A DNA stretch of 64,000 bases, taken from assembly GCA_019058445.1 (NCBI GenBank), contig JAHPZA010000006.1, positions 1 through 64,000 of the forward strand. Direction: 5' to 3'. Positions 25,721 to 43,371 of this stretch are shown here, piece by piece. The translations under genes and the position numbers were made by a program. The notes beneath the pieces were generated by a model. The model ran no database searches and was not told the DNA's origin. It was given only the letters and a program-made list of their open reading frames with translations. Positions within the stretch are counted from its first letter, which is position 1; each line of letters begins with the position of its first letter. Source of the DNA: Promethearchaeota archaeon (GTDB lineage: Archaea > Asgardarchaeota > Lokiarchaeia > Sigyniarchaeales > SOKP01).

Positions 25721-25737
25721 TGAAAGAGATGTTTCAC
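25721..25737 (+). repeat. attL core TGAAAGAGATGTTTCAC
   Basis: Identical to 43355-43371. Confidence 0.93.
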
Positions 25738-25764
25738 TATAAGATTAGGGATCGAATCGATACC

Positions 25765-25773
25765 TTTAAATAG
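25765..25773 (+). promoter_or_regulatory. TATA-like box TTTAAATAG of the integrase operon
   Basis: About 50 bp upstream of first viral ORF; same 9-mer at 28394 and 32377. Confidence 0.5.
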
Positions 25774-25825
25774 TTTCTTCTACAGTCATCAGTAACAAGA
25801 AAATTATGGAGATGAGAAGATAAAA

Positions 25826-26038
25826 ATGAAAATTTCCGAAGAAATGAAGTATAGGAATAAAATAAGAGAAATGAAAAACTTCTTAAAGCATTTAAATCAA
25901 TTACCCAATTATCCTAATGAACAGAGCAACATAACAGAAATAATGAATGGCTTCGGACATGTTGAGCTAAACGATTTGTTTGATACTTTAGAAGCTTTTA
26001 AAAATAAAATTGAATTTTACGATTTTCGAGGCGATTAA
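25826..26038 (+). CDS. Viral hypothetical protein
   Basis: 70-aa ORF starting the integrase operon. Confidence 0.6.
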   Translation: MKISEEMKYRNKIREMKNFLKHLNQLPNYPNEQSNITEIMNGFGHVELNDLFDTLEAFKNKIEFYDFRGD

Positions 26039-26042
26039 ACAA

Positions 26043-26180
26043 ATGGAAAAACCAAAATACGATAAGATTAAAACGCAAGATATACATTATATTAATGAAC
26101 TTAGACATAAAGAGTTTTTAATCGAAAATCGCTTAGTTAAAGAAGAAATAAAAGAAATGTTAATAGAGGTGATCCAATAA
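26043..26180 (+). CDS. Small viral protein (45 aa, not in ORF track)
   Basis: MEKPKYDKIK...LIEVIQ-stop fills the gap between neighbouring ORFs. Confidence 0.55.
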   Translation: MEKPKYDKIKTQDIHYINELRHKEFLIENRLVKEEIKEMLIEVIQ

Positions 26181-26669
26181 ATGACTAAATTAACAGAAGA
26201 TATACATCTAAGATTTACTGAAACGGAAAAACAAGATATAGTTAAAATGGCGGAAGAAACTAATATGAAAATTACAGAATTTTGTAGAAATGCTATTTTT
26301 AACCATATTAGGAGAATTGAAAATCCCGAATTATTTAAAGTGAAAAGTTCAATTAATTCCGCAGATCTTAATGAAATTATTTCCGAAGTTAAGGAAACAT
26401 CCGATATTTCAAATAGAATATTAGCAAAAACCAATTTAATGGAAATTATTGATAAAAAGCTTGATATAATTCATAAATATATAGTAGGCCCGTCAATAAG
26501 CACTAATAGGGATTTAATAACGGATTTGTTTAAAACTCATAAGACTTTATCTCTAAAGCAAATAATAGAGAAATTAGATTTAGATCCCGAATTGACAACC
26601 GATTTAGTTAAAATAATGCATAAAGAAGGAACATTAAAAACAAATTCTAGGGGGAGATACTATAAATGA
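26181..26669 (+). CDS. DNA-binding protein: N-terminal RHH plus C-terminal winged helix
   Basis: IHLRFTETEK..ITEFCRNAI (RHH-like); LSLKQII..MHKEGTL..GRY (wHTH-like). Confidence 0.65.
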   Translation: MTKLTEDIHLRFTETEKQDIVKMAEETNMKITEFCRNAIFNHIRRIENPELFKVKSSINSADLNEIISEVKETSDISNRILAKTNLMEIIDKKLDIIHKYIVGPSISTNRDLITDLFKTHKTLSLKQIIEKLDLDPELTTDLVKIMHKEGTLKTNSRGRYYK

Positions 26670-27571
26670 GTAATATAACAGATTTTACAAACAAGGAAAT
26701 AATTACTAAATATCTTAATCATTATAGACACTCAAAACAATCCCAAAACATGCGAAAAAGCTCATTAAACTATTTTTTTAGCGAAGATTACTTCGGTTAT
26801 GAAGGAGATATTAAAGATATTTCAAAATCCGATTTGTTTGATTATCATGACTACTTAAACCATAAAGAAGATATTAGTTTAACAACTAAGGAAAACAAAT
26901 GGCGAATATTAACGAGTTTTATACAATGGATTATGGAGTATTACGATGGTTTTTTAACTATTATTCCGTCAAAAACAGTTAGTTGGAAGCCTAATCATAA
27001 ACAAGCGAATTCAAACAAAAACGTTGTTCTTACTAAGGAAGAGATAAAAAAGATATGGAATTATTTAGAGCTAAATAACTTTAAATATTATTTAATCTTT
27101 AGGGTTTTTTCCGAAACGGGAGCACGAAAAAGTGAAATCATAGATGCTAAATATGACGATGTCAATATAGAAAAACGCTATATTAAAACTACTGGGAAAA
27201 AAGGAACTAAGATCTATTATATTTCAAAAGAACTGGCGGAATTATTGGAAATTCATATTAAAGAGCGAAAACCTCGAAATCCCAAACCTAAAAATCTATT
27301 TGTAACTAATCGTGGGAATAAATACAGAAGCAGGGCTTTTAACCTATATATACAAAAGCATATTAAAAACATCGGAATTGATAAACACGTTAGTTGTCAT
27401 ACTTTTAGAAGATCTCTAAATACAGAGCGAAAGAAAATGGGATGTAGTAATGAAGACAGAAAAATTCTAATTGGTCACGCAGTTCAAGATGTTAATATAA
27501 ACTCCTATGTGAAATTGAACTACAAGGATTTTATTAAAATGTTTGATAAATGGAATCCATATAAATTTTAA
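26666..27571 (+). CDS. Tyrosine recombinase / integrase
   Basis: TGARKSE, GKK, HTFRR, IGH, SY catalytic residues; stop/start overlap with upstream ORF. Confidence 0.95.
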   Translation: MSNITDFTNKEIITKYLNHYRHSKQSQNMRKSSLNYFFSEDYFGYEGDIKDISKSDLFDYHDYLNHKEDISLTTKENKWRILTSFIQWIMEYYDGFLTIIPSKTVSWKPNHKQANSNKNVVLTKEEIKKIWNYLELNNFKYYLIFRVFSETGARKSEIIDAKYDDVNIEKRYIKTTGKKGTKIYYISKELAELLEIHIKERKPRNPKPKNLFVTNRGNKYRSRAFNLYIQKHIKNIGIDKHVSCHTFRRSLNTERKKMGCSNEDRKILIGHAVQDVNINSYVKLNYKDFIKMFDKWNPYKF

Positions 27572-27910
27572 TAATTTTTTTACCCTATTTTTATACTATT
27601 TTATTAAATATTTTCCTGATTTTTATATTTTTGTCATTATTTTTAGCTTCTCGATGTATTCTATGAAGAGCTTAAGCGATATTTTTTTTCCATTTTTCTC
27701 CATTTCGATTTAAACTATCTTAAATGGAGATGATAAGATATTTTCTAGCGAAAAAGCGACATGTTTATCCGTATATTTCGCTTGATTCCTCTTATCCTGT
27801 GGGGAGATGTGGTTAATTTTTTGCGGAAAAGTTAAAATTACGTTATGTTTGATCGTACATATCCGTGAGGAGATATGTACAGGCGTACATATCGATAATA
27901 AACCTAATAG

Positions 27911-28205: not shown

Positions 28206-28393
28206 TGGGAAAATATAAAAATTTTTTGAGTGACAAAAATCTTTTCGCGTGACATATTTATCTCGCGTGACATTAACCAAATTGCAGAATAGTTTGAGGA
28301 AAAAAGCGAAATCGAAACATTTTTATAGTTACTTTGACTAGTATATGGTGAAGTATTACTAAATAATAAAAAGTAAAAAAAACCATGCAAGGT

Positions 28394-28402
28394 TTTAAAT
28401 AG
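28394..28402 (+). promoter_or_regulatory. TATA-like box of the RHH-TFB operon
   Basis: GCAAGGT-TTTAAATAG about 40 bp before ATG 28443. Confidence 0.55.
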
Positions 28403-28442
28403 ACTTTTTTTTTTATTTTTACTAGGTAAAAATTAGTAAAAA

Positions 28443-28580: not shown

Positions 28581-29390
28581 ATGCATTGCGACGAATGTTC
28601 GGGCGCTATTAATTATATCGGAATCTGTGAAGAATGCGGATTAATTGATAACGAAATCCATAAAGAAAGTATGCTAGATTTAGATCCTATGAGTTTTAAT
28701 AAGAATGGTGAGCTTAAGAAAGATCATGGAATTTTTTATAAATCTAATATTCCGTGTATAGCAGTTACAACAAAAGTAAGTAGAAAAAACGCTAACAATT
28801 CCGATTTATTTAGAGCTTTAAAATGGGATGGAAATTACAAATGGGATATACAAAAATTCATGATTTTTAAAAAAGAAATTGAGTATATTTGCGAAAATTT
28901 AAACATAAAAAACGATTTGAAGTTTACAATCTTAGATATGGGAAAACGGATTTTGGGAAATCTAATCTTATCTGGGAAAAGGATTGAAGATATGGCGGGA
29001 GCAATTGTTTATTTGACGGCTAGAATTGAAGAATTGCCTATATTGATTGATGATCTTAAAGATTTAGAATACAAAAATACTTATCGTTATTACGTTTTCT
29101 TAGTTAAAAAAATGGGATATTTTAACATATTAAAAAACCCAAATCTGAGAAGATTTTTATATCGGTTTATAGTAGAATTAGAATTAAGTGAAAAAGTTGC
29201 GTTAGAATGTCTGAAAACGCTATTAAAATTAAAGCAAATTTCCGCGAAAATAAATATCAAATCTGCAAGTGTTATTTACTATGTTTGTAAAAAAAACGGA
29301 ATTAATATAACTCAAAATAAGATTTCCGAAGTTTGTAAATGTAGTGTGGTGCAAATGAGGGAAATAATAAAAATATTGAATAAAAAATGA
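28581..29390 (+). CDS. Virus-encoded TFB/TFIIB homologue
   Basis: CDEC..CEECG Zn ribbon; GKRIEDMAGAIVYLTAR and ASVIYYVC..ITQNKISEVCKCSVVQMR cyclin repeats. Confidence 0.85.
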   Translation: MHCDECSGAINYIGICEECGLIDNEIHKESMLDLDPMSFNKNGELKKDHGIFYKSNIPCIAVTTKVSRKNANNSDLFRALKWDGNYKWDIQKFMIFKKEIEYICENLNIKNDLKFTILDMGKRILGNLILSGKRIEDMAGAIVYLTARIEELPILIDDLKDLEYKNTYRYYVFLVKKMGYFNILKNPNLRRFLYRFIVELELSEKVALECLKTLLKLKQISAKINIKSASVIYYVCKKNGINITQNKISEVCKCSVVQMREIIKILNKK

Positions 29391-29539
29391 ATCCAAAAAA
29401 AATAAGAGAATGCCCAGTGTGCGGTTCAAAACACTTCTTCATAGCTGGATCATTAAATACGTACGGTTGGTTTACCGATATCATAATTTACTGTTATTCT
29501 TGTAAGAAATATCGCGGAATAATAGATACAGAAGGTTAA
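29387..29539 (+). CDS. Small Zn-finger protein (50 aa, not in ORF track)
   Basis: CPVC...CYSC; ATGA overlap with TFB stop. Confidence 0.7.
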   Translation: MNPKKIRECPVCGSKHFFIAGSLNTYGWFTDIIIYCYSCKKYRGIIDTEG

Positions 29540-29553
29540 GTATTTTTACAAAA

Positions 29554-29811
29554 ATGAAAGAATTGAATAAAGTTAAACTTATAGAAAAAATTGAGATGGG
29601 AATAGGCGTGAAGAATGGGGATATAGAACACTGTTTAAACGACGATAATATGTTTGATATAACAAGTAGAATTAAGGAAAATGAACATAATTGTAATCCC
29701 CTTTATATTACTATTCCTTTCTCTTTTCTCCTAAAGCGTTTTAACCTTAGAAGGAAAAATCGAGAATTAAAAATAGGTTTAGGGTTAAAAGTAACATATA
29801 AAGAGGATTAA
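29554..29811 (+). CDS. Viral hypothetical protein
   Basis: Co-oriented ORF in tightly packed operon. Confidence 0.6.
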   Translation: MKELNKVKLIEKIEMGIGVKNGDIEHCLNDDNMFDITSRIKENEHNCNPLYITIPFSFLLKRFNLRRKNRELKIGLGLKVTYKED

Positions 29812-29835
29812 ACATCCTCTATTTTTTTTTCAAAA

Positions 29836-30150
29836 ATGCCAGAGTTAAAAGAAATGCCAGAAATTATAAGATCTCAGAGATTAATAACCTATGATAATAA
29901 AAAAGTATGGGCGACGGAAAGTGTTTGTATGGATGTTAAATTTAATGGAGTGGAAAATTATTTCACGATAGATAATGCCCAGTCAGAAGCTACTAAGAAA
30001 ATCAATGGGATTTTGGATGAGCTAGATAAATTGATTGAGAAGATATATTTCGCGGGAAAATTTTATGGTGCAAATATGTTAAATTGCAAGGTTAAGATCG
30101 CCAAAATTAAAGAATTGTTGCCTGTTACGATAAAAGATGACGGAAGATAA
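29836..30150 (+). CDS. Viral hypothetical protein
   Basis: Co-oriented ORF in operon. Confidence 0.6.
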   Translation: MPELKEMPEIIRSQRLITYDNKKVWATESVCMDVKFNGVENYFTIDNAQSEATKKINGILDELDKLIEKIYFAGKFYGANMLNCKVKIAKIKELLPVTIKDDGR

Positions 30151-30571
30151 ATCAACATTAGAAATTACTAAATTTCCGCAGACTAAAAAGAATGATAGTA
30201 TAGATGCATTAGGAATGGAAATAAAACAATTGAAGGGAAATTTGATGGAAATTGAAAATTTGAAAAACGATTTAAAAATCATAAAACGATTATTCTATTT
30301 GATGATCTCATATAAAGAATTCAGAAATAACGAATTTCTTTATTTGATTCAAGATTTATTAATAGATAACAATGTAAGAAATGATAAAACCTACAAGAAT
30401 CATCTAATAGAAGTAAACCTAGATCAATTAAGGAAAGCAATTAAGAAGATTGAAGATTTTAAGGAGATAGAAGATTTAGGACCTCATGAAGTAGGATTAA
30501 AAATTCTAAGAGAAAATGAAACCCTAAAAGATCATATTAATTGGATGATTAGGGAAAATGACGGAGATTAA
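30137..30571 (+). CDS. Viral coiled-coil hypothetical protein
   Basis: Overlaps both neighbours; heptad-like pattern. Confidence 0.6.
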   Translation: MTEDKSTLEITKFPQTKKNDSIDALGMEIKQLKGNLMEIENLKNDLKIIKRLFYLMISYKEFRNNEFLYLIQDLLIDNNVRNDKTYKNHLIEVNLDQLRKAIKKIEDFKEIEDLGPHEVGLKILRENETLKDHINWMIRENDGD

Positions 30572-30953
30572 AGATATACCTTTTGACATTGAAAATTTGA
30601 ATCTCTTAGAGTTAATTGGAGGGAAGACAGCAGATCTCTCCAGATTTTTAGGAGTGAATGGAGACATTGTTTTTATTACGTGTATCTGGGACGGGTTAAC
30701 CAATTTTTATACCCGAATAGCAGATTATGATCAAGCTTTACAAGAAAAGGAATTAACAAGAAAACAACATTTTGTTAAAATTTGGAAATTAAAGAATGAA
30801 ATGTTAAACATGTTTTCCTCAATTTGCGACACGATATCAACTGTTCCAGAGTTTAATGAAATGATTGACGACGATACAAAAAGCAGTATAAAGAAATGGC
30901 GTGAAGCGTATAAGAGCTTTATTGAAAATACAGAAAAAGTAGTTAAGGAATAA
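30558..30953 (+). CDS. Viral hypothetical protein
   Basis: Overlapping co-oriented ORF. Confidence 0.6.
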   Translation: MTEIKDIPFDIENLNLLELIGGKTADLSRFLGVNGDIVFITCIWDGLTNFYTRIADYDQALQEKELTRKQHFVKIWKLKNEMLNMFSSICDTISTVPEFNEMIDDDTKSSIKKWREAYKSFIENTEKVVKE

Positions 30954-30991
30954 ATTAAATTCCTTTATTTTTTTTATTGTAGTGAGAAAAA

Positions 30992-31234
30992 ATGATGCAA
31001 AATATAAATTTAGAAAAAGATTTTAAGGGAGTTTATTATGAGGCATCTTCTAATAATACTTCTTATAATGACGCGATAAATTCCCTTATTTCTAAAATAA
31101 TGCAAACACTTAAAAACTCTATTGATCCTAAAGAGAAAAAAGCATCGATTGGATTGTTTGGGAATATAATAACAACCTTATCTATAAAGGATCAAGATTT
31201 TAAAGAAATAGAAATATTTGGAAGTATTAGATAA
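30992..31234 (+). CDS. Viral hypothetical protein
   Basis: Co-oriented ORF. Confidence 0.55.
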   Translation: MMQNINLEKDFKGVYYEASSNNTSYNDAINSLISKIMQTLKNSIDPKEKKASIGLFGNIITTLSIKDQDFKEIEIFGSIR

Positions 31235-31265
31235 ATAACTAAAAAAGAACGGGTAAGTGAAATTT

Positions 31266-31415
31266 ATGAAATTATGGTTTAGTGCGAATATATTGAATCG
31301 AATAAACAATATAAAACATAAGAATGAGACAGTAACGCAATTTATTAAAAGGGCTGTTGAGTATTATGTTTTGGAATGTGAACGTGAATATAATGAAAAT
31401 AAAAAAGACACCTGA
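31266..31415 (+). CDS. Small RHH-like protein (49 aa, not in ORF track)
   Basis: MKLWFS..ETVTQFIKRAVEYY. Confidence 0.55.
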   Translation: MKLWFSANILNRINNIKHKNETVTQFIKRAVEYYVLECEREYNENKKDT

Positions 31416-31731
31416 AGAGAATTATTATAAAAAACGCACAGAGTATATCCGTTTATTCATAATTGAGGATAAAAAAATAAATGAAATATCGGAAATTACG
31501 GGAGATTCAAAATCGAGGGCAAGGTATTTAATTTATAGTAAATGGGATTTAAAGAAAAAAGGAAATCCATTATATTTGATGTATAAGAATAGGAGAGAGG
31601 AAACGGATAAACGGAAAATTGAGAGATTACTTGAAGATGGGAAAACAAGAAAGGAGATTTATTCGAAGTTTAAAGAAAATTACAAAACTTTTTTGTCTTA
31701 TTGTAAGCGTTTAGGAGTTAGGGGAGACTGA
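31393..31731 (+). CDS. Basic double-HTH-like protein adjoining origin-like repeats
   Basis: KKINEISEITGDSKSRARY and GKTRKEIY..YCKRLGV; ATG at 31393. Confidence 0.55.
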   Translation: MKIKKTPEENYYKKRTEYIRLFIIEDKKINEISEITGDSKSRARYLIYSKWDLKKKGNPLYLMYKNRREETDKRKIERLLEDGKTRKEIYSKFKENYKTFLSYCKRLGVRGD

Positions 31732-32210
31732 TTTTTGTCACATCGCGATCTCTTAGGAAATTGAAGAGACTGATTTTTGTCACATCATTTTCACTTTTTT
31801 CCTAAAACTAAAAATGGTTTTTTTGATCGAATTTGGTATTTAGGAGTTTTGAAGTCTTCATAAAATAATGAAGAGGAAAAATCGTCACATGATTTTTGCG
31901 GGAAAAATGTGGGAAAAAGTGGGGAAATGAAATATTTGACGAGATGGGGTTGTCTAAACAAAAATTATGAAAATTTAGTTTCTAGGAAAAAATGAAACTT
32001 ATAATATATAATATATAACTTTCATATTTATCTAGAAACTAAAATTATAAGTAGAGGCGTTTTAAAGCTATTTTAGAATTTTGGGTAAGGTTTACGTGGG
32101 AAAAATGTGGGAAAAAGTGGGTTAGTTTTCGGTTTTTAGTGAAATGAATGTGACATTTTTCAGTCTTCTGTATTCTGTTAAATCTCTAAGCGATCTAATA
32201 GCCAAATTTA
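31724..32210. repeat. Origin-like region: iteron pair, G-rich direct repeats, central AT-rich palindrome
   Basis: 21-bp repeats 31724-31744/31766-31786; 24-bp repeats 31900-31923/32098-32121; inverted arms 31974-31985/32032-32043. Confidence 0.7.
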
Positions 32211-32376
32211 AATTGAAAAAATGGTTTAATTTTTAAAATCCATAAATGATGGGAAGAACGGGTTTAGGGTATTTTTTTGGACACTTCGACTTATTTTAAT
32301 CATAAAAAAGCCTGTTTTCTCCCATCATTTTATTATTTTTCCGTAATGAGATGACTGAAAAGCGGGATTGGTAAGT

Positions 32377-32385
32377 TTTAAATAG
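32377..32385 (+). promoter_or_regulatory. TATA-like box of putative late transcript
   Basis: TTTAAATAG about 22 bp before the structured segment at 32407. Confidence 0.55.
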
Positions 32386-32406
32386 TCATTTTTTTTGGTT
32401 GTAATT

Positions 32407-32649
32407 GACAAATTTATGACTGAGATTGATCGCGTTAAGAGGGAATTCATACTTATTTCAAAAATGAATTCAAGATCGAAAGATCTTTTTGAAGAATATA
32501 TTTAAAGAGGCATGTTGACGTACAGTCACTTGGAAATTGAAATATCTTTCGAGAGATCTTTTGTTTGTTCGAATTCTACTTTTTTTATCACCTGTCATAA
32601 ATTGTCTTGTTCCATGTGAACAAAATCGGGACGATCTCATCAATCGTCC
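32407..32649 (+). ncRNA. Candidate structured RNA / long 5' leader
   Basis: Nested complementary segments 32407-32420/32594-32606 and 32479-32499/32542-32561 (G-U type mismatches) plus two small hairpins. Confidence 0.5.
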
Positions 32650-32656
32650 TTAAAAA

Positions 32657-33151
32657 ATGTTTTCCAGAGTAAAAGAAACGCGAAAATCGGAAGTAATCGC
32701 CAGAGAAGGGCAACCAAGAGTAGATGTGGACAGACCTGAAGTTATTGGCGGGCCTGTGGCGAGTTCTTGGATAAGTAGCTTGTATTATGATTTAGAAAAT
32801 GAAGTAGCTACTATGAATACATTCGATTTAGGAGAAAAAGGAATAGATTATCGCAGTTATGACTTTCCAGAATTTCCTCCCGCAGAATTTGATGATTGGT
32901 GGCTTGCAATGAGTAAAGGCACATTTTATCATGAAAGGGTTAAGAATCTGGGATATCTAAAGCGTAGAATGTTATTGAAAAGGGTTTTGGCTAAAGTAAA
33001 GGCTAGAAAGTATAGAAGGCGAGAAAATAGGAAGTTTAAGTATTATTCCGACGCGTTTAAAGAAGGATTGCCAGTTAAACAAAAAGGAACGGGAAAAAGA
33101 GCAATTCCGTATTCGAAAAGGAAATTAAAGCAAAAAGGGTTATTTGAGTAA
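32657..33151 (+). CDS. KTSC-domain protein with basic C-terminal tail
   Basis: VASSWISSLYYD...YDFPEFPPAEFDDWWLAMSKGTFYHERVK follows KTSC pattern. Confidence 0.75.
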   Translation: MFSRVKETRKSEVIAREGQPRVDVDRPEVIGGPVASSWISSLYYDLENEVATMNTFDLGEKGIDYRSYDFPEFPPAEFDDWWLAMSKGTFYHERVKNLGYLKRRMLLKRVLAKVKARKYRRRENRKFKYYSDAFKEGLPVKQKGTGKRAIPYSKRKLKQKGLFE

Positions 33152-35507: not shown

Positions 35508-35915
35508 ATGAAATTAAAAAATATTATTAATAAAATTAAGACTGGATATAAACGCTTTAGAGAGTACTTCTATAAAGGAGAAGTGGTGTTTATGACTAAT
35601 GATAAAGCCCATTTAGAGGCAATTTATACAAGTTTATCCGTTTTAGGAATAGATATTAAATATATAGGTAATAATGAATATATGTTTAAAATCTCCGCAA
35701 AAAAGGAAAAACATTATAAAAAGCTTGTAAATACAATTCTGGAAGATAAGGAGAGTTTAAAAGAGAAGTCTATGCGTTTATTTGATAAAGAACTTAAAAT
35801 AAAAGAATTAAATGAAAAATTAGCTTTTCTTAAAGGATTATTTGAATCAGAAAAAGCTATTATTTTTGAAGAGAATTTCAATGAAGATATGAAGGCTAAA
35901 TTAGATGCAATATAA
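35508..35915 (+). CDS. Viral coiled-coil protein between TerL and portal
   Basis: Co-oriented, K/E-rich helix. Confidence 0.6.
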   Translation: MKLKNIINKIKTGYKRFREYFYKGEVVFMTNDKAHLEAIYTSLSVLGIDIKYIGNNEYMFKISAKKEKHYKKLVNTILEDKESLKEKSMRLFDKELKIKELNEKLAFLKGLFESEKAIIFEENFNEDMKAKLDAI

Positions 35916-37077
35916 AACAGTAAATAGAGGCAGTTTTGATCGGTATTATGAAAACCAATATGCACCTAGTTTACTAAAAGATTATTATACTTCCGTAAAT
36001 GACGCAGAAACTAGGGAAAAGAGATCGGGGATTGATCCTTTAGCTTCAGCATTAACTTTACGTGTCGGAAAGCTTTTAACCATGAATCCCCCTAAATTCT
36101 TGGATGAGAATAAAGAAGAGATCAAGAAAATAAGAGAAGAATGGGTTAAAAATGATTATGATAGCGTTTTCCGTGAAGCGATAATAAGTACACGTACTCA
36201 TGGGTTTTGCGTGACAGAAAAACTGAAAAATTCTTTCGCGGGGAAAAACTTTTTAGTACATAATCTGGCGAATGGAATTATACGTGTAAATTATGAAGAT
36301 CGTTTGAATATAAAGAGTTATGATATTCTCCCAAAAATGGAAGAAGGCGAGAGGATTTCGAGTTATGCTATTCCAAAACAACGTGAATTAATGGGAAAAA
36401 ATGCTTTTCACTATGAAATAGGAAGGAAAAAATATAACCAACAAGGCGAGAGTTCTTTAAAACCAATTTGGGCCCAATTAGTACGCGCAAATGAGATAAT
36501 TGACAGTATGGCGGAATATGACTCGCGTATCGGTAAGGGCTGGCTATATGTTAAAGTAGATCCCGCATTATATAATAAAGATATTTCAAAACTTAATACT
36601 GTCGTGCGAAAAATGAATCGTCGACGTTTTATGATTCTAAAAAGTACAAAAGAATCGCCCACGGATATTAATTTATTAACAACGACTAGCACGATTGATT
36701 TTTCTAGAGATCTAGAAACTTTAGTGGGTATTATAGCTTCACAGACTGGATTGCCTACTCGGTGGTTTCTTGGTTCACCAAAAGGATTCATTTCTTCCGC
36801 AAAAGAAGATAGATATCAAGTTTATGCAACTTTAAAAAGTATATTTGCGGAATATAAAGACTGGATTAGGGGATTTATTGAGAAATTCTATGAAAGTGGA
36901 GAAGCTATAAACAATAAGATTAAAGAAATTGAATTTGACGACGAAGGCGTTTTAGAAGAAATAGGAAGACAAATGGAAAACGGTGTAGCTTTTGATAACA
37001 ATCAAATACAAGAATCAGGTAAAACTGAGAAACAAATTAAATATTTAGCTAATAAAGAACAATTAAAGGAGAGCTAA
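35905..37077 (+). CDS. Portal protein (DUF1073-like)
   Basis: Position after TerL; GESSL and IASQTGLPTRWFLGSPKG..ED..Y resemble DUF1073 portals. Confidence 0.8.
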   Translation: MQYKTVNRGSFDRYYENQYAPSLLKDYYTSVNDAETREKRSGIDPLASALTLRVGKLLTMNPPKFLDENKEEIKKIREEWVKNDYDSVFREAIISTRTHGFCVTEKLKNSFAGKNFLVHNLANGIIRVNYEDRLNIKSYDILPKMEEGERISSYAIPKQRELMGKNAFHYEIGRKKYNQQGESSLKPIWAQLVRANEIIDSMAEYDSRIGKGWLYVKVDPALYNKDISKLNTVVRKMNRRRFMILKSTKESPTDINLLTTTSTIDFSRDLETLVGIIASQTGLPTRWFLGSPKGFISSAKEDRYQVYATLKSIFAEYKDWIRGFIEKFYESGEAINNKIKEIEFDDEGVLEEIGRQMENGVAFDNNQIQESGKTEKQIKYLANKEQLKES

Positions 37078-37079: not shown

Positions 37080-37409
37080 ATGGAAGAATTAATTATAGAT
37101 GTAGAAAATATTGATGGAGAGAATTTAAAAATCGAACTTCCGTTTTTTAAGCCTTATATCGTTAATAATGAAGATTTTCTTAATATGGTTAGGTATTTAA
37201 AAAAGAAATTTGATTTAAATATTCCGTCTGAAGCGAATAAAGCTTTAAAACATTGGTCAGATTTAGAAGAATCGATGGTACAAGAATCTAAAGAATTTGT
37301 ACCATATGAAAGCGTTCATTTTAAGCATCATTTTAAACTAGAAGGGCTTAAACCTTTTGATATTGAGGAGTTTTATAAATCTCATTATAAAACTACTAGA
37401 GGATGGTAA
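37080..37409 (+). CDS. Viral hypothetical protein in head module
   Basis: Between portal and protease. Confidence 0.6.
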   Translation: MEELIIDVENIDGENLKIELPFFKPYIVNNEDFLNMVRYLKKKFDLNIPSEANKALKHWSDLEESMVQESKEFVPYESVHFKHHFKLEGLKPFDIEEFYKSHYKTTRGW

Positions 37410-37410
37410 A

Positions 37411-38139
37411 ATGACTCATTTAGAGGATTACGATTATATAGGAACAGCATGCTTAGGTGACGTTAAATACGACGACGGTTTTGATAAATGGGATGATATC
37501 AAGAAAGTAATTAAAAATAAGAAAGAAATTATCATAAAACCCAATCATGAAAGTAAAGATATCGTCGGAAGGGTCAAGTTTTTTGAGCTGTGCGATAAAA
37601 ATAAAGAATTGAAAATAGGAATTAATAGAAAGGATTTATCCGTTGGTTTAGATGCTTTTAATGGAGTTTCTCCCCAATTTTTAACCAATGATAAAGGCAA
37701 AATAGTAGATATAACACATTTTGCGATTGGGAATAGTTTTAAACCGAAGTGTGATAAATCAGTATGTTATATTGAAAAAAATCGAGGTAAACAAAAGAAA
37801 ATGGATGATTTAGAAAAAAAAATTGAAGATTTAAAAGCTGAAAATAAAAAACTTAAAGCGAAGTATTTAGAACTAGAAAATAAGATGCTAGAGACTGATA
37901 ATAAAGCTTTTGAAGAATTCTTAAAAGAAAAAAACAATAATAATAAGTCTAAAGATAAGGATAAAGATGGGAGTAATCCTAAAGATAAGGATAAAGATAA
38001 AGATTTAGACTTAACACCAAATCAAGATATCGAGCAAGATATCGAGACAAAACCCAAAAATAAGTTTGAATATAAAGGATTTTTGGGAAATACAACTAAA
38101 AACACAGAAAATTTAATCGCAAAAAGAAAAATAAAATAA
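37411..38139 (+). CDS. Prohead protease-scaffold fusion
   Basis: NH..IVG, GVSPQF, THFAI protease-like motifs; coiled-coil and KD-repeat C-terminus; ATG at 37411. Confidence 0.7.
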   Translation: MTHLEDYDYIGTACLGDVKYDDGFDKWDDIKKVIKNKKEIIIKPNHESKDIVGRVKFFELCDKNKELKIGINRKDLSVGLDAFNGVSPQFLTNDKGKIVDITHFAIGNSFKPKCDKSVCYIEKNRGKQKKMDDLEKKIEDLKAENKKLKAKYLELENKMLETDNKAFEEFLKEKNNNNKSKDKDKDGSNPKDKDKDKDLDLTPNQDIEQDIETKPKNKFEYKGFLGNTTKNTENLIAKRKIK

Positions 38140-38183: not shown

Positions 38184-38636
38184 TTGGCAAATACTAAAAT
38201 TAGTGATATTGCAAATAGTGTAAGCTTAGGTATAAATCCAACAGAGAGCGTTAAAGCCTCAGAGGCTTCCTTAAAAGCAGGTATGGGCGTCTATCATTAT
38301 AACGAGACGGGCGTAAAAGCAATAGAGGGAAGTGCAGCATTGGTTAGCGGTTTTGCGGGAGTTTTAAAAGAACATTATTATTCTGGTCTTGATGCAACAT
38401 TAACTAATGGATCAGACTATGAGCTTATCAAAAGAGGTCCATGTGCTGTGTTTATTGATGATCCAGGTAAAACTTTTGGACCAGGTGTGGAGATCTGGGT
38501 AAGTGGTGCAACTGCTGGGAGTTTTGGTTTATTAACTGATCGTGACTTTATTGCTCTTTCGGGAGCTAGCGCAGTTGGTAAAACTATCGATACTATTAAC
38601 TCAGGCGATACCGTTGCTATGGTTAATCTTTATTAA
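38184..38636 (+). CDS. Capsid decoration/cement protein
   Basis: G/A/V-rich beta protein directly before MCP. Confidence 0.65.
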   Translation: MANTKISDIANSVSLGINPTESVKASEASLKAGMGVYHYNETGVKAIEGSAALVSGFAGVLKEHYYSGLDATLTNGSDYELIKRGPCAVFIDDPGKTFGPGVEIWVSGATAGSFGLLTDRDFIALSGASAVGKTIDTINSGDTVAMVNLY

Positions 38637-38648: not shown

Positions 38649-39566
38649 ATGGTAAGATTAACAAGGCAAGAACTTAAAAGTATCGATGACATCGTTAAAC
38701 GTGTTCTTCGTGAGCCTCCAATCTTAGAGGCTTTCGGCATTAGACAAGTTGCTAATGGTAAAAGAGAACATATGTTTTTAAGCGCGTCAGATATGCCCAC
38801 ATCTAATATTGGTGCAGATTTCTCTTATGATGCTAGGAACTACCCTATGAGAATCCCTACTGGAACAAAACTAACATTTATAACCTTTCCTGTTCAAATT
38901 AAAAGAACGGATATTGATGCAAGCGAAAGTGCGGGAATTGAATCTCTCGCCGTAACGGCTGAAATTGAAGCAAACGCAGCAATAATGAAGGATGTTGAGG
39001 ATGTTGTTCTTCATGGCAATAATGCTCGCGGATCTAAAGGTATGTGCAATTATGATGGTTTAAATCATTATGGTGCAGATGCTAGTAAAGCCTTAACAAC
39101 TCATGGGAGTTTTTTTACCCAGTTGGAAGGGGCTATCTCACAGGTTCGCGAAAATCATATTAAACCCGGATCAGAAGGCTACGATCTAATAATTAGTCCT
39201 GGGATTTTTCCCGAATTAAGGAATAATTGGGTTACTGGGATTTATAATGAGTATAAGCAATTTAAGGAAACCTATACTGAAGGTCCAGCTCCAGTTATCG
39301 GTAATATTATCGAGACTGACGAGATCTGCACGGACAGTAATGGGAACGCTACAGGTTGCTTCACAGATACCCAAGGTTTCATTGTCGGGAAATTAGGACA
39401 GCCAAATAATTACATCGCTGAATCGTACGAACTTCACCGCGATTTGATTCCAGGAGAATTTGAAAGTGATGTAAATTATGCGCTACGTTGGGCTGGCGGA
39501 TTTATTCCGAAAGAACCGAAGGCTTTATGCTTAGTCACTGGGTTAACGACAACCACAGCATATTAA
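38649..39566 (+). CDS. Major capsid protein, HK97 fold (encapsulin/DUF2184-like)
   Basis: 305 aa, strong SD AAGGTGA, VEDVVLHGNNARGSKGMCN, YDLIISP, C-terminal PKAL. Confidence 0.82.
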   Translation: MVRLTRQELKSIDDIVKRVLREPPILEAFGIRQVANGKREHMFLSASDMPTSNIGADFSYDARNYPMRIPTGTKLTFITFPVQIKRTDIDASESAGIESLAVTAEIEANAAIMKDVEDVVLHGNNARGSKGMCNYDGLNHYGADASKALTTHGSFFTQLEGAISQVRENHIKPGSEGYDLIISPGIFPELRNNWVTGIYNEYKQFKETYTEGPAPVIGNIIETDEICTDSNGNATGCFTDTQGFIVGKLGQPNNYIAESYELHRDLIPGEFESDVNYALRWAGGFIPKEPKALCLVTGLTTTTAY

Positions 39567-39654: not shown

Positions 39655-40002
39655 TTGTTGGTGATGTTAAAATTGGTGTATAGTAAATTAACGGATATAG
39701 AAAATAGGTTACCATTTGATATAAACGCAAATTCAATTCCATCGAGTAGTCAATTAACGGGCGTACAACTTCAATCAAACTTATTCATTAATGGATTTAT
39801 AGGGAGACCTTCTGGTTTAACGGAAAATACTGGAGCTTTAAGAATAATAGAGACCGATATTGCAGTAAATTATTGTATGTATTGGCATGATCCCGAATTC
39901 TCGCCTTTTTTTAGGTTTACACGCGATCAGAGGATGATTTTAGATAATTATCGTAGCGATCAATGTGTAAGATTGGGAAAATTAGGTTTTGATAGGGATT
40001 AA
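39655..40002 (+). CDS. Head-tail adaptor-like protein
   Basis: Position after MCP; YSKLTDIE..FINGFIG pattern of gp15/gp6-like adaptors. Confidence 0.55.
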   Translation: MLVMLKLVYSKLTDIENRLPFDINANSIPSSSQLTGVQLQSNLFINGFIGRPSGLTENTGALRIIETDIAVNYCMYWHDPEFSPFFRFTRDQRMILDNYRSDQCVRLGKLGFDRD

Positions 40003-40004
40003 AA

Positions 40005-40418
40005 ATGACTATCGCGGATATTAAGAGTGACGTTGTATCTCATTTAACAGATAATTGGAATACAGGCGTTTGTTCAATGCCAGAGATCCTCGAAGGAGAT
40101 CGCAAAACTAATTTGCGTGGCAACCAAATCAAATATCGGAATTCTATTAAAGTCTGGGATAATGGAATGGAGCCAGAATATGTAGATCCGCAACGCAAGA
40201 TTTGGGACGAGTATTACAACGTAAAATTAGAAATAGGATCACGCGAATCGGAAAGTAATTTAAAAAATATTTTATCCGAAACGCAACGCATTATAGGATT
40301 GACTGGGATATCGAATTACGATAACCAATTAATTTTGGGTGTAAAAAGGAAAGATTCTTCCGAAGAATATTACTCAGAATTTGATTTTATTGCAATAAAA
40401 TACAACCAATCCGTGTAA
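40005..40418 (+). CDS. Neck / tail-terminator-like protein
   Basis: 137 aa, position, VKLEIGS..LSETQRII pattern. Confidence 0.5.
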   Translation: MTIADIKSDVVSHLTDNWNTGVCSMPEILEGDRKTNLRGNQIKYRNSIKVWDNGMEPEYVDPQRKIWDEYYNVKLEIGSRESESNLKNILSETQRIIGLTGISNYDNQLILGVKRKDSSEEYYSEFDFIAIKYNQSV

Positions 40419-40637
40419 AAAAAGCAAAAATGAAGAGGTGTCCGCTACACCTCTTAAAAACAATCCATAACAATCCAAGAACGGAACGGATTAAACTAGA
40501 AAAAGATTGACGGTTTTTCTTAAAATTGCTGTTCGCAAAACAAGGAAAAAACAAAAAGAAAAGTACTAGGTTAAGGTTAAATTAATCCGTTCTTCAAAAA
40601 TGAATAAAAAAATAAATATAAACAGGTGAAATGAAAT

Positions 40638-41504
40638 ATGGCAAAAATATATGCAATTCACTTAGGGTGGGTGTTAGTAGAATCTTATAATGTAGGTGAT
40701 TTAGGTGACAACGACGGTGCGCGAGGAATTTGTAATGACGGAACATTTTTTTACGTTGTTGATTATAATGGTTCAGCAGTATACAAATATCCTTCAGATT
40801 TTAGTTCATTAACGGATTCATATGATATAGGAGCATTGGGTGACAATGATAATCCTTGGGATATTTGTTGGGATGGAACTTATTTTTATGTCACTGATTT
40901 TATAGATGCAAAAGTCTATAAATATAATTCTGACTTCAGTACATTAGAAGACACTATTGATATAGGAGCATTGGGTGGTAATGACGAACCGTATGGTATT
41001 TGTTGGGATGGAACAAACTTCTTCATTACAGATTATGGGGAAGCGTACGTTTATAAATATCCTTCAGATTTTAGTTCATTAGAAGCAAGTTATGATATTG
41101 GCGCATTAGGTGGGAATGACGCACCTATGGGAATTGATTGGGATGGATCTGATTTTTATATATCTGACTATCAAGACGCTAAGGTTTATAAATACCCTTC
41201 AGACTTCTCAGAATTAACTACAAGTTTTAATTTAGCTAACTTAGGTGATAATACGCAACCAATGTGTATGTGTTGGGATGGCACATATTATTATGTAATT
41301 GAATATAAAGATACTGTTTATAAATATGCAGGGGAAATATTAGATATAACCTCCGATGTCAGCTACTGTAAAATCATCACAGAAGTCCGCCAAGTTCCTA
41401 AAGCTATTATAAAGGTACGAAATCAACCATTTGAAGCAGATGATCTCATTCGAATTGTCGGTAATTATACATCATTCAAAAACTGTATAAGGCATGGTAG
41501 TTAA
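40638..41504 (+). CDS. Beta-propeller repeat protein, possible receptor-binding protein
   Basis: Five ~43-aa repeats YDIGALGxNDxPxGICWDGTxFY..VYKYPSDFS. Confidence 0.75.
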   Translation: MAKIYAIHLGWVLVESYNVGDLGDNDGARGICNDGTFFYVVDYNGSAVYKYPSDFSSLTDSYDIGALGDNDNPWDICWDGTYFYVTDFIDAKVYKYNSDFSTLEDTIDIGALGGNDEPYGICWDGTNFFITDYGEAYVYKYPSDFSSLEASYDIGALGGNDAPMGIDWDGSDFYISDYQDAKVYKYPSDFSELTTSFNLANLGDNTQPMCMCWDGTYYYVIEYKDTVYKYAGEILDITSDVSYCKIITEVRQVPKAIIKVRNQPFEADDLIRIVGNYTSFKNCIRHGS

Positions 41505-42183
41505 AAGAATTAGAAAAACTATTCTAAGTAAATGGGTAAATAAGCTTAACTTAAATAATATTCCAATTGAGTTTATTTATACAAACAATAATACATTTGA
41601 AAATGGTTTATGTAGTTATGATTTTAACGCAAAAAAGTATAGGATATTTATAACTCCAAATTCTGATAAAGAAACCTATATTCACGAACTAGGGCATATT
41701 TACTTCGATAAATTGACTAATGCTTTAAACTACTATCAAAAAAACCCTTTTAAGAATATTTATATTAGAAATAGCATTGAGGACGGTTTTGTTAATTATA
41801 ACCTAAGTAAATTTAATGAGTTTTATGATCTTATTAATGAAAATATAGGAAGATCAAAACCAATTAATTATTTGATCAAGAGTTTTAGTTTAAATAGACT
41901 TTTAGGTGGTTATATTTATGATTATCTTCATTGGAACTTCATATTAAAACCAAAAGATCGAAATTTACAAAAAGAAATAATCGATTATAATCTCAATATT
42001 TACCAAAAAGCTATACTCATAAGAGCAAAACAAGAAAAGATTAAATTCAATCAAAAAGACTTATTCAAATTAAGAATAATCTTAAATCAATTTCCTAAAA
42101 TTAAAGATCTTAGAGATTATAAGATCTTAAAAAAGTATGAAGATCAGGTTTTAGAAAAATTTGAAAAAATAAGAGATATTTAA
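41494..42183 (+). CDS. HExxH metallopeptidase-like protein (ImmA/IrrE-like)
   Basis: YIHELGH plus downstream IEDxxVN. Confidence 0.7.
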   Translation: MVVKRIRKTILSKWVNKLNLNNIPIEFIYTNNNTFENGLCSYDFNAKKYRIFITPNSDKETYIHELGHIYFDKLTNALNYYQKNPFKNIYIRNSIEDGFVNYNLSKFNEFYDLINENIGRSKPINYLIKSFSLNRLLGGYIYDYLHWNFILKPKDRNLQKEIIDYNLNIYQKAILIRAKQEKIKFNQKDLFKLRIILNQFPKIKDLRDYKILKKYEDQVLEKFEKIRDI

Positions 42184-42231
42184 CCAAAAGACAAAAATCC
42201 AGATATCTAAAACCTTAAGATCTTCTTTAGA

Positions 42232-42624
42232 TTAATAAGAGGGTTTAAATCCCGTTATTTCATACACTAGGGATCGATGGAGAAATCCATCTTTCTCTAA
42301 ATTATTATTTCTTTTACTAAAATCATCAAAATGCGGAATAATTGATTTTCTTTTTTTGTATTGATTAAATAAGATCTTTTTTTGAGATTTCATGAATCTA
42401 TGCTCTTTTTCTTTCACATTTTTTTGATTTTTATCAGTCAAATCAAATATATCAAGTAAGAAATATAAAGAATCCATAGATAATTCATATTTTTCCGTTT
42501 TTTCGCTTTCTCTTTTACAATATAACCAAATACTAAAAACTGGCTTACGATTTTTATGAACTAACACATATTTCCATAAATATTTACAATTTCCTTTTTT
42601 TAGTTCTTTACTTATAATAAACAT
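42232..42624 (-). CDS. Viral hypothetical protein
   Basis: 130-aa ORF convergent on peptidase. Confidence 0.55.
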   Translation of the reverse strand: MFIISKELKKGNCKYLWKYVLVHKNRKPVFSIWLYCKRESEKTEKYELSMDSLYFLLDIFDLTDKNQKNVKEKEHRFMKSQKKILFNQYKKRKSIIPHFDDFSKRNNNLEKDGFLHRSLVYEITGFKPSY

Positions 42625-42668
42625 TTTCTTTCTAATATTTTACCTGTTTTTTATCATTTTAATAAAAT

Positions 42669-42698
42669 AAAAAAATAGATGGGGATTATTCCCCATCT
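42669..42698 (-). terminator. Hairpin plus T-run on minus strand
   Basis: AGATGGGGA/TCCCCATCT stem followed by T7 on minus strand. Confidence 0.65.
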
Positions 42699-42732
42699 TA
42701 AAACGTAGCAATAAATACGTTCAATGCGCGTT

Positions 42733-42885
42733 CTAACAATATACTAACGTTACTTTATTCTTTTTAATGAATCCTAATTTTTCTAATTTGTCAATAATTA
42801 CTTCTTCCGTTTTTTCTAAGCTTCGATATAGGTTTAAGAGACGTTCTATTTCTTCTTCTTTAGATGCTTCAATCTGCTGGCTCAT
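42733..42885 (-). CDS. Small viral protein (50 aa, not in ORF track)
   Basis: MSQQIEASKEEEIERLL...; SD GGAGGTGA; ATGA overlap with upstream ORF. Confidence 0.65.
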   Translation of the reverse strand: MSQQIEASKEEEIERLLNLYRSLEKTEEVIIDKLEKLGFIKKNKVTLVYC

Positions 42886-43163
42886 TTTATCACCTCCTCT
42901 ATTATTTTTTTAATTCCGTTAATTAGAATCATGATAATAACAAATATTTGAAACCCTATAAGCAAAAATAGAATTAAATCATATATTAAACTCCCGTGAA
43001 CAACTAAGCCACAGCAATTAACAAATCCCCCTTCACCTTTTTCATATGAATTTTTTATTGAGTTACTTACTAAATGTAATGTTAAAGCGAATACTATTAC
43101 AAATATAGCTAAAATGGTATTTACAATTAATAAAAATAATAGATTTTTTACTTTTTTTTCCAT
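42882..43163 (-). CDS. Two-TM viral membrane protein
   Basis: Two hydrophobic helices; likely start MEKKVK. Confidence 0.65.
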   Translation of the reverse strand: MEKKVKNLLFLLIVNTILAIFVIVFALTLHLVSNSIKNSYEKGEGGFVNCCGLVVHGSLIYDLILFLLIGFQIFVIIMILINGIKKIIEEVIK

Positions 43164-43354
43164 TTTTATCTCCAATACACGTCATCGTCGCAAGGTTTAT
43201 AAATCTTCTGACTACAAAACGGTACAAAAGTTTATAAGATTTAACAATAATATACAATTAGATCGGAAGAGTTCTTCTCATCTCCGAGAATTAAACTAAT
43301 TTTAGTTTAGCTCTTCCGATCGCTATTAATACCTTTTCGATCCCAGATTAAAAC

Positions 43355-43371
43355 TGAAAGAGATGTTTCAC
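43355..43371 (+). repeat. attR core TGAAAGAGATGTTTCAC
   Basis: Identical to 25721-25737. Confidence 0.93.

What the first reader, a model, noticed from the sequence alone, without database searches (positions are those of the whole stretch)
25721..43371. Compact Asgard provirus with full head module but no tail tube, tape measure or replicase
Seen: intact att repeats and open integrase, TerL, portal, protease-scaffold, decoration, MCP and two neck genes. After 40418 there are only a propeller protein, a peptidase and small ORFs, none long or helical enough for a tape measure. No polymerase, MCM, primase or Rep is visible. Known: bacterial capsid-forming PICIs have a similar head-only content and borrow helper tails. 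Inference: this is an archaeal capsid-forming satellite, a tail-less HK97-fold virus, or a provirus with a tail deletion. The terminator-like gene at 40005 favours a tailed ancestor.
Basis: partly seen in the sequence, partly recalled or inferred. Interest (0 to 1): 0.9.

Follow-up and report, generated by a model that had tools for sequence, protein, structure and literature searches.

The report
Tail-defective verdandivirus-like provirus in a Lokiarchaeon
This is a 17.6-kb virus genome precisely integrated in an Asgard (Loki-type) archaeon that still has all its head and DNA-packaging genes. It has lost the tail-building genes that every informative relative carries, so it is most likely a crippled provirus rather than a new kind of tail-less virus or satellite.

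Summary
The element is a 17,634-bp insertion bounded by an exact 17-nt direct repeat (25721-25737 and 43355-43371). A same-genus genome has the two flanks joined at one copy of that repeat, an empty site. The element carries a tyrosine integrase, a TFB homologue, TerL, portal, a scaffold-like protein, a decoration protein, an HK97-type capsid protein and two neck genes, all full length. No tail tube or tape measure was found in the element or elsewhere in the 4.6-Mb genome.

Eleven relatives whose contigs reach past the second neck gene or into the tail module carry tail genes there. The usual order is tube, two small genes, tape measure, a distal-tail protein and a large hub/adhesin. One relative is a complete 19.9-kb circular genome that matches published verdandiviruses. 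The window's portal nests inside a tailed clade.

The 288-aa "propeller" gene is the 5' part of a hub/adhesin gene. It has the propeller domain plus about 42 residues of the hub core, then stops. The next gene is a cellular-type zinc metallopeptidase, not a tail part.

Best reading: a temperate verdandivirus-like provirus with two lesions in its tail module (about 0.67). A tail-stealing satellite is not excluded (about 0.17).

The parts
25721..25737 (.). attL core, a 17-nt direct repeat that is itself an imperfect palindrome (GTGAAA-6 nt-TTTCAC)
   Evidence: empty site in G045 with a single core
26181..26669 (+). 162-aa protein with an N-terminal ribbon-helix-helix (NikA-like) domain. It overlaps the integrase start by 4 nt. 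Candidate regulator or excision cofactor (inferred).
   Evidence: PF21983, 1.3e-9
26666..27571 (+). Tyrosine integrase, full length
   Evidence: PF00589, 5.8e-20, profile positions 2-170 of 172. The R, HxxR and Y motifs are visible in the translation.
28581..29390 (+). TFB/TFIIB homologue with an N-terminal Zn ribbon. Candidate virus-specific transcription initiation factor.
   Evidence: PF00382, 1.2e-12. It is 22-28% identical to eight host TFB paralogues.
29387..31731 (+). Run of small early genes (50-144 aa, one a Zn ribbon) with no recognised replication protein
31732..32656 (.). ORF-poor stretch with a 31-nt direct repeat (31893 and 32091). Candidate regulatory, origin or pac region. Not tested.
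   Evidence: D5; no Rfam match
32657..33151 (+). KTSC-like basic protein. Candidate small terminase by position only.
   Evidence: weak KTSC; homologues beside TerL or portal in L006, L024, L025 and G077
34015..35505 (+). Large terminase, full length
   Evidence: 49% identical over 491 aa to L006 TerL
35905..37077 (+). Portal protein, full length
   Evidence: 52% identical to L005 and L006, 34-44% to nine IMG/VR contigs
37357..38139 (+). Scaffold-like coiled-coil protein. A protease function is not confirmed, and the true start is probably near 37420.
38184..38636 (+). Capsid decoration (stabilisation) protein, in the position typical of verdandiviruses
   Evidence: layout described in bioRxiv 10.1101/2021.07.29.453957
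38649..39566 (+). HK97-fold major capsid protein
   Evidence: Linocin_M18, Major_capside
39655..40002 (+). Neck gene 1. Candidate head-tail adaptor (lead only).
   Evidence: homologues follow the MCP in the relatives; language-model lead to gp6-like connectors
40005..40418 (+). Neck gene 2, the last gene before the tube gene in relatives. Candidate tail terminator or stopper (lead only).
   Evidence: lead; the AF2 model failed
40419..40637 (.). Breakpoint 1. A 219-nt spacer stands where relatives have tube, two chaperone-size genes, tape measure and a distal-tail gene. It contains a 9-bp hairpin at 40433-40455.
40638..41504 (+). 3'-truncated hub/adhesin gene. It has the beta-propeller domain (residues 1-230) plus about 42 residues of the hub core (residues 239-279), then stops.
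41494..42183 (+). Zincin-type metallopeptidase of an archaeal cellular family (DUF5781-like fold). Cargo gene, not a virion part. Breakpoint 2 lies just upstream, at about 41475-41494.
42232..43175 (-). Three small reverse-strand ORFs (130, 50 and 97 aa; the last is hydrophobic), unknown cargo
   Evidence: no family
43355..43371 (.). attR core
   Evidence: a contig of run X4 bridges it

Best explanation
This is a temperate relative of the verdandiviruses, the small siphovirus-type HK97 viruses of Asgard archaea. Its own tyrosine integrase inserted it at a 17-bp palindromic core between a phosphorylase gene and the S27e gene of a Lokiarchaeon.

Shown: the boundaries, the empty site, a full-length integrase, terminase, portal, scaffold-like, decoration, capsid and two neck genes, and the absence of tube, tape measure and distal-tail genes.

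Also shown: the tail module carries two lesions. The block from tube to distal-tail protein is gone, replaced by a 219-nt spacer. The hub/adhesin gene is cut off about 50 codons into its core and is followed by a cellular-type metallopeptidase gene.

Inferred: on induction the element could excise. It would be transcribed with help from its TFB homologue and replicated by host enzymes, as proposed for verdandiviruses. It would package its DNA into decorated HK97 capsids closed by the neck proteins. These heads would have no tail, so the element cannot infect on its own. It is therefore a defective provirus. It could spread only vertically, or if a co-infecting tailed relative supplied free tails.
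For: Boundaries and empty site.

Relatives. The MCP, portal, TerL, decoration and both neck proteins are 38-61% identical and syntenic with L005, L006 and L007. Homology stops exactly at the end of neck gene 2. The next gene in L005 and L006 is a 309-aa Phage_tube_2 protein (40 bits against a cut-off of 27; PHROG 'tail', 2.5e-14), followed by a tape-measure-like protein and distal tail proteins. Nine further IMG/VR relatives were found. Every one that is long enough has tail genes after the neck genes, usually tube, two small genes, TMP, a Dit-size gene and a hub. L028 is a complete 19.9-kb circular genome with a 259-aa TMP, as published for verdandiviruses.

The window nests in a 100/100 clade with the tube-bearing L005 and L006.

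The 288-aa ORF aligns from residue 1 with the N-terminal propeller of the L021 893-aa hub (38%, 3e-34) and of the L008 781-aa hub. Its last part matches the start of the hub core (profile of five hubs, E 2.5e-4, the only hit among 95 window ORFs). No hub sequence follows.

The spacer after neck gene 2 is 219 nt, against 1-76 nt in relatives.

The metallopeptidase is cellular-type.

An independent contig bridges the region.
Against: All head, neck and integration genes are full length and the att cores are identical. An old defective provirus would be expected to show more decay, so the loss is either recent or the remaining genes are under selection.

Only one genome carries the element, so the age of the lesions cannot be measured. 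The nearest relatives are only about 50-60% identical, so no ancestor with a tail is directly seen. The match to the hub core is short (about 42 residues, 12.7 bits). Stand-alone propeller genes exist in a tailed relative (L008, 176 aa), so the 288-aa gene could be a functional gene in its own right.
Confidence: 0.67

Rival explanations
1. It is a capsid-forming satellite, an archaeal counterpart of bacterial cf-PICIs. The element makes its own DNA-filled heads with neck proteins and depends on tails made by a co-infecting tailed verdandivirus-like helper. The loss of the tail module is then an adaptation, not decay.
For: The integrase, att sites, terminase, portal, capsid and both neck genes are intact. 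Its size of 17.6 kb is close to the 19.5-20.6 kb packaged by complete relatives. Tailed relatives that could act as helpers exist in sediments, and two are reported to be matched by Lokiarchaeia spacers. Tails of siphoviruses assemble separately from heads (established knowledge).
Against: No second tail-less relative was found: all eleven informative relatives are tailed. A truncated hub gene remnant is not expected in a streamlined satellite. No helper or tube gene is present in this 92.6%-complete genome. No satellite-type replication or helper-sensing module was recognised. There is a single instance, in one genome.
Confidence: 0.17
2. It is a complete virus with an unrecognised minimal or tail-less delivery device. 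Portal, the two neck proteins and the propeller protein would form a stub that binds the host, with no tube or tape measure.
For: The propeller gene is intact with six well-kept blades and its own ribosome-binding site. It retains a short hub-core segment that might dock it to the neck.
Against: No nozzle, needle or tube candidate exists. The only other sizeable downstream gene is a cellular-type metallopeptidase. Homologous propeller domains in relatives are parts of 781-893-aa hub proteins of full siphovirus-type tails. The lineage is nested among tailed viruses.
Confidence: 0.05
3. It is an assembly or binning artefact. The tail module would be present in the real genome but collapsed out of the contig.
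For: The genome comes from a sediment metagenome, and breakpoint 1 lies in an AT-rich spacer.
Against: A separate assembly (a 28.8-kb Logan contig) of the probable source run covers 37970-44500 with no difference and continues into the host flanks, though it uses the same reads. The truncated hub ORF ends in a proper stop and overlaps the next gene's start. No tail genes occur on any other contig of the genome.
Confidence: 0.03

Closest known systems
Verdandiviruses (Asgard archaeal Caudoviricetes; Medvedeva et al., bioRxiv 10.1101/2021.07.29.453957, Nat Microbiol 2022)
   Same: Shared features: HK97 MCP with an encapsulin-like Pfam signal, a decoration gene directly upstream of the MCP, TerL and portal, no replication genes, a genome of about 20 kb, and an Asgard (Lokiarchaeia) host. 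The relatives found here (L020-L028, L005, L006, L008) have the published tail set: major tail protein, a short tape measure and a hub with an adhesin domain.
   Different: This element is integrated. It encodes a tyrosine integrase and a TFB homologue, whereas the published genomes were described as lacking replication and transcription proteins and as likely lytic. It also lacks the tail module. I could not obtain named VerdaV sequences, so membership rests on layout and on unnamed IMG/VR relatives. MCP identity to the complete genome L028 is only 37%.
Capsid-forming PICIs (cf-PICIs) of bacteria
   Same: A chromosomal island of 10-18 kb with an integrase, its own terminase, portal, capsid and head-tail connector genes, and no working tail genes. 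Such heads could in principle join helper tails.
   Different: cf-PICIs are a conserved, widespread family with a regular tail-less layout and their own regulation and replication module. Here the layout is a single case. It carries a truncated tail gene, its relatives are complete viruses, and no helper is known. There is no sequence relationship.
Defective (cryptic) prophages with tail-module deletions, such as tail-less defective lambdoid prophages
   Same: A precisely integrated virus genome in which one morphogenetic module is lost and a gene fragment marks the lesion, while other modules remain open.
   Different: The host is an Asgard archaeon. All remaining structural genes are still intact, so the defect looks young.
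Provirus in Promethearchaeota MAG DZ2S.179 (G077, contig JBHLNF010000002.1)
   Same: The only other integrated relative among 400 Asgard genomes. It has an integrase plus the same head module (portal 40%, MCP 30%).
   Different: After the MCP it has six further genes, including a 1275-aa beta-helix tail-fibre-like protein. Its ends were not defined.

Membership tests
Caudoviricetes / verdandivirus-like viruses | HK97-fold major capsid protein, large terminase and portal in one module | tested here: met
Caudoviricetes / verdandivirus-like viruses | Capsid-stabilising (decoration) gene directly upstream of the MCP | tested here: met
   38184-38636 is homologous to the gene upstream of the MCP in all relatives; the feature is described
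Caudoviricetes / verdandivirus-like viruses | Siphovirus-type tail genes: major tail protein, tape measure, baseplate hub with adhesin | tested here: not met
   Only a 5' fragment of the hub/adhesin gene remains; there is no tube or TMP
Caudoviricetes / verdandivirus-like viruses | No virus-encoded replication proteins; genome of about 20 kb | tested here: met
   No replication domain; 17.6 kb
Caudoviricetes / verdandivirus-like viruses | Sequence relationship to named VerdaV genomes | not testable with these tools
   NC_074645 is not held; the phage collection gave no match; the relationship is inferred through unnamed contigs that match the published layout
Capsid-forming satellite (cf-PICI-like) | Integrase plus a complete head and packaging set with head-tail connectors | tested here: met
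Capsid-forming satellite (cf-PICI-like) | Tail-less layout conserved in independent relatives | tested here: not met
   All eleven informative relatives carry tail genes; no other tail-less copy in 400 Asgard genomes or in the metagenome and viral collections
Capsid-forming satellite (cf-PICI-like) | Dependence on a helper virus's tails for transfer | not testable with these tools
   No helper in the genome; needs culture or virome data
Defective provirus | Descends from a lineage of complete viruses | tested here: met
   Portal tree: the window lies in a 100/100 clade with the tube-bearing L005 and L006
Defective provirus | An essential module is missing and a truncated gene remnant sits at the lesion | tested here: met
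Defective provirus | General decay: frameshifts, stops or degraded att sites | tested here: not met
   Head, neck and integrase genes are full length against homologues; the att cores are identical

The most novel reading that the evidence does not exclude
The element is a working archaeal capsid-forming satellite. It would be a verdandivirus-derived island that builds its own DNA-filled heads and takes tails from a co-infecting tailed relative. That would make it the first HK97 capsid-forming satellite in archaea, found in the lineage closest to eukaryotes.
Probability: 0.15. Interest if true: 0.85.

Novelty: new member of a known kind. Interest (0 to 1): 0.42.

Why it matters
Verdandiviruses were described from metagenomes as small, probably lytic viruses without integrases. 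This element and the provirus in G077 show that relatives integrate into Lokiarchaeial chromosomes through a tyrosine integrase at a non-tRNA palindromic site, with exactly defined ends.

That gives a firm virus-host link for an Asgard archaeon. It also provides a compact, intact head and packaging module that could be expressed.

The tail-less state is most simply decay. Even so, it is the kind of intermediate from which tail-stealing satellites could arise, so it is worth checking in raw reads and viromes.

Tried and rejected
AlphaFold2 of neck protein 2 with a 3-sequence alignment gave pLDDT 39.9, which is unusable, so no fold search was run.

Profile searches of both neck families against PDB sequences gave only chance-level hits, and Pfam scans of each member of the neck-2 alignment did too. 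The adaptor and terminator labels therefore remain language-model leads.

PHROGs and Pfam gave nothing for the genes after 39655. The word-based homologue search with neck protein 2 found only itself.

MCP and portal searches in the GenBank phage collection found no match. NC_074645 (VerdaV2) is not held.

MCP-pattern scans of IMG/VR found nothing. The portal alignment was needed to find relatives.

A crude CRISPR-array finder found no array in the genome, so spacer links to helpers could not be sought.

No att repeat could be defined for the G077 provirus.

The sequencing runs are held only as contigs. No coverage ratio, attP junction or excision test was possible. The listed joints all have a side of 20-23 letters and were treated as spurious. 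Parts without cover in runs X2-X4 were not interpreted.

Rfam gave no match in the element.

Fylgjavirus, a 16-kb Lokiarchaeum provirus, was considered as a relative. It has a double-jelly-roll capsid and is unrelated. The 3.8-kb NMV2S 'Asgard satellite' is plasmid-like and encodes no capsid.


Full report
**What is there.**

The window is the first 64 kb of contig C6 of a 4.6-Mb, 10-contig Lokiarchaeial genome. G+C content shows no break, but the 26-42 kb stretch has a consistently positive GC skew and nearly all its genes lie on the + strand.

An exact 17-nt direct repeat lies at 25721-25737 and 43355-43371. It occurs nowhere else in the genome.

The decisive check is an empty site. In genome G045 of the same genus, the left flank (88% identical to window 23037-25740) runs straight into the right flank (83% identical to 43355-50000). 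The two alignments share one copy of the core.

The element is therefore a 17,634-bp insertion with exactly known ends. It sits in an intergenic site between a PNP-type phosphorylase gene and the S27e/L44e ribosomal protein genes. No tRNA gene is involved.

**Gene content.**

Left arm:
- Two small ORFs.
- A 162-aa protein with a ribbon-helix-helix N-terminus (26181-26669).
- A tyrosine integrase (26666-27571; PF00589, 5.8e-20). Its start overlaps the RHH gene by 4 nt.
- A TFB/TFIIB homologue (28581-29390).
- A Zn-ribbon peptide.
- A run of small genes with no recognisable replication protein.

A 0.9-kb ORF-poor stretch with a 31-nt repeat pair follows. After it come a basic KTSC-like protein (32657-33151) and the morphogenetic block:
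- TerL (34015-35505).
- A 135-aa coiled-coil protein.
- Portal (35905-37077).
- A 109-aa ORF.
- A scaffold-like protein (up to 38139).
- A decoration protein (38184-38636).
- The HK97-type MCP (38649-39566).
- Two neck genes (39655-40002 and 40005-40418).

The Pfam scores for TerL, portal and MCP are below the curated cut-offs. The calls are secured instead by full-length homologues in syntenic contigs. A protease function for the 260-aa protein was not confirmed. It and its homologues give only coiled-coil-type noise.

**Relatives.**

The MCP family is rare. Five metagenomic proteins were found among 5.8 billion. One further genome was found among 400 Asgard genomes: G077, a Promethearchaeota MAG.

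Contigs L005, L006 and L007 are syntenic with the window from TerL to the second neck gene. Identities are:

| Protein | Identity to the window |
|---|---|
| TerL | 42-49% |
| Portal | 44-52% |
| Decoration | 49-57% |
| MCP | 52-61% |
| Neck 1 | 41-59% |
| Neck 2 | 38-42% |

 Homology ends exactly at the stop of neck gene 2.

In L005 and L006 the next gene is a 309-aa tail tube protein (PF18906, 40 bits against a cut-off of 27; PHROG 'tail', 2.5e-14). It starts 76 nt and 2 nt after neck gene 2 respectively. Both contigs then have two small genes. L005 goes on to a 479-aa tape-measure-like protein and further tail proteins of 132, 299, 484 and more than 176 aa.

A portal alignment brought in nine IMG/VR contigs. 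Six of them have recognisable neck homologues. In all six, a 199-347-aa tube homologue follows within 1-36 nt of neck gene 2. The four long enough continue with one or two small genes, a 259-636-aa tape measure, a distal-tail protein of about 140 aa and a hub of 566-1003 aa. L020, L021 and L023 have diverged neck genes but carry comparable tail genes. L022 and L007 end too early to tell.

L028 has a 123-bp terminal repeat, which makes it a complete circular genome of about 19.9 kb, and its tape measure is 259 aa. This matches the published description of verdandiviruses: 19.5-20.6 kb circular genomes, a capsid-stabilising gene upstream of the MCP, a major tail protein, a short tape measure (median 259 aa), a hub with an adhesin domain, and no replication or transcription genes (bioRxiv 10.1101/2021.07.29.453957).

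In a portal tree the window falls in a 100/100 clade with L005, L006 and L007. It is sister to the tube-bearing L006 (92/94). All other clades are tailed. Lack of a tail is therefore a derived loss.

**What replaced the tail.**

After the stop of neck gene 2 comes a 219-nt spacer with a 9-bp hairpin (-12.2 kcal/mol, z -4.5). A GGTGA ribosome-binding site follows, then the ATG at 40638.

The 288-aa product has six 45-aa blades. It is not a free invention:
- It aligns from its first residue with the N-terminal propeller of the 893-aa tail protein of L021 (residues 2-223, 38%, 3e-34).
- It also aligns with the first 180 residues of the 781-aa hub of L008. That hub continues into regions homologous to the distal tail proteins of L005.
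- L008 is itself a tail module with a tube-like gene, a 326-aa tape measure (PHROG 305, 9e-6) and a Dit-size gene.

A profile built from the first 120 residues of the hub core of five relatives hits residues 239-279 of the window protein (E 2.5e-4). This was the only hit among all 95 ORFs of the region; the next best had E 0.58. The ORF stops nine codons later.

No other piece of any of about 45 tail proteins of the relatives is detectable between 40300 and 43400, even at E of 1. None is detectable anywhere in the genome, and a tube HMM has no significant hit there (best E 0.06).

The tail module therefore carries two lesions:
- The tube-to-distal-tail block is gone (breakpoint 1, 40419-40637).
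- The hub gene is cut about 50 codons into its core (breakpoint 2, about 41475-41494).

**The rest of the right arm is cargo.**

The 229-aa gene overlaps the stop of the truncated hub gene by 11 nt. It has 48 homologues in the 1.84-billion-protein library (49 listed hits including itself). His64, Glu65, Gly67, His68 and Asp97 are conserved. With that alignment it folds at pLDDT 92.7.

The whole model matches the archaeal DUF5781 family (TM 0.70). Its N-terminal part matches minimal zincins (selecase, jannalysin) and SprT/IrrE-type proteases. Its closest homologue (39%) sits among KEOPS, Sua5 and pyruvate-ferredoxin oxidoreductase genes of an archaeal chromosome. It is a metallopeptidase and not a tail part.

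Three small reverse-strand ORFs with no family fill the space up to attR.

**Artefact check.**

A 28.8-kb contig from a separate assembly (Logan) of the probable source run covers 24600-37998 and 37970-44500. The second piece has no differences, so both breakpoints and both junctions with the host are bridged. The only irregularity is a 30-nt gap in a short tandem repeat near 37970.

Small contigs from two other samples of the same study bridge attL (X2) and attR (X4). These runs are held only as contigs. They say nothing about excision, copy number or rare variants.

**Reading.**

Relatives with tail genes exactly there were found in every informative case. The one 'tail-side' gene that remains is a truncated piece of the same module.

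The simplest account is a temperate verdandivirus-like provirus that lost its tail module through two deletions or replacements. It can no longer make infectious particles on its own (confidence 0.67).

This does not look like an old wreck. The integrase, both att cores, terminase, portal, capsid and neck genes are all intact. Either the damage is recent or the head module is kept by selection.

That leaves room for the satellite reading (0.17). Heads made by this element could be completed by tails of a co-infecting relative, as with bacterial cf-PICIs. Against it:
- There is no second tail-less relative.
- The gene remnant is unexpected in a streamlined satellite.
- No helper is present in the genome.
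- No satellite-type regulatory or replication module was recognised.

A self-sufficient tail-less or stub-tailed virus (0.05) and an assembly artefact (0.03) have little support.

**Novelty.**

Defective proviruses are ordinary, and the virus family is known. What is new is modest: an integrated relative of verdandiviruses with exactly bounded ends, an integrase and a TFB homologue, in a Lokiarchaeon.

The papers I could search describe two other Asgard elements. One is a 3.8-kb plasmid-like 'satellite' of a siphovirus (10.64898/2026.08.12.739948). The other is a double-jelly-roll provirus of Lokiarchaeum (10.64898/2026.02.13.705702). Neither is related to this element.

The same scan noted this stretch twice more from overlapping windows (e1-5498318 and e1-5498301). 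Those are readings of the same DNA, not independent finds.

Noticed in passing
window 25715-25745 and 43349-43379; attB in L016 (G045:C1): The 17-nt att core is an imperfect palindrome (GTGAAA, a 6-nt spacer, TTTCAC). In attB the flanks extend the symmetry, giving the form of a tyrosine-recombinase core site. Just inside both ends there is an inverted 9-mer: GGGATCGAA at about 25749 and TTCGATCCC at about 43331. These are possibly integrase arm sites.
   Followed up: partly
window 31732-32656 and 33152-33538: Two ORF-poor stretches flank the KTSC-like gene ahead of the terminase. The first holds a 31-nt direct repeat pair 198 nt apart (31893 and 32091). They are candidates for an origin, a pac site or a regulatory RNA. 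No Rfam match was found.
   Followed up: partly
window 32434-32469 and 40570-40605: A 36-nt motif (75% alike, GTTAAG...TTCAAAAATGAAT) lies upstream of both the KTSC-like gene and the truncated hub gene. It may be a shared promoter element.
   Followed up: no
G000 contig C4:395375-399169: A 1264-aa host ORF shares an adhesin-like domain with the middle part of the hub proteins of the viral contigs L020, L023 and L028 (E down to 3e-19). Its neighbours do not look viral.
   Followed up: partly
window 28581-29390 versus the rest of the genome: The provirus TFB homologue is only 22-28% identical to eight TFB paralogues spread over the host genome. That is an unusually large TFB family.
   Followed up: no
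L005:3704-4112: In the tailed relative L005 the second neck gene is split into two overlapping ORFs (82 and 71 aa). This is a frameshift or a sequencing error.
   Followed up: no
window 37944-37998: A short tandem repeat encoding Lys/Asp lies in the scaffold-like gene. The independent Logan contig differs here by a 30-nt gap, so repeat number may vary in the population or be mis-assembled.
   Followed up: no
L024 and L025: In these relatives the KTSC-like gene lies between TerL and portal. In the window and in L006 it lies upstream of TerL.
   Followed up: no
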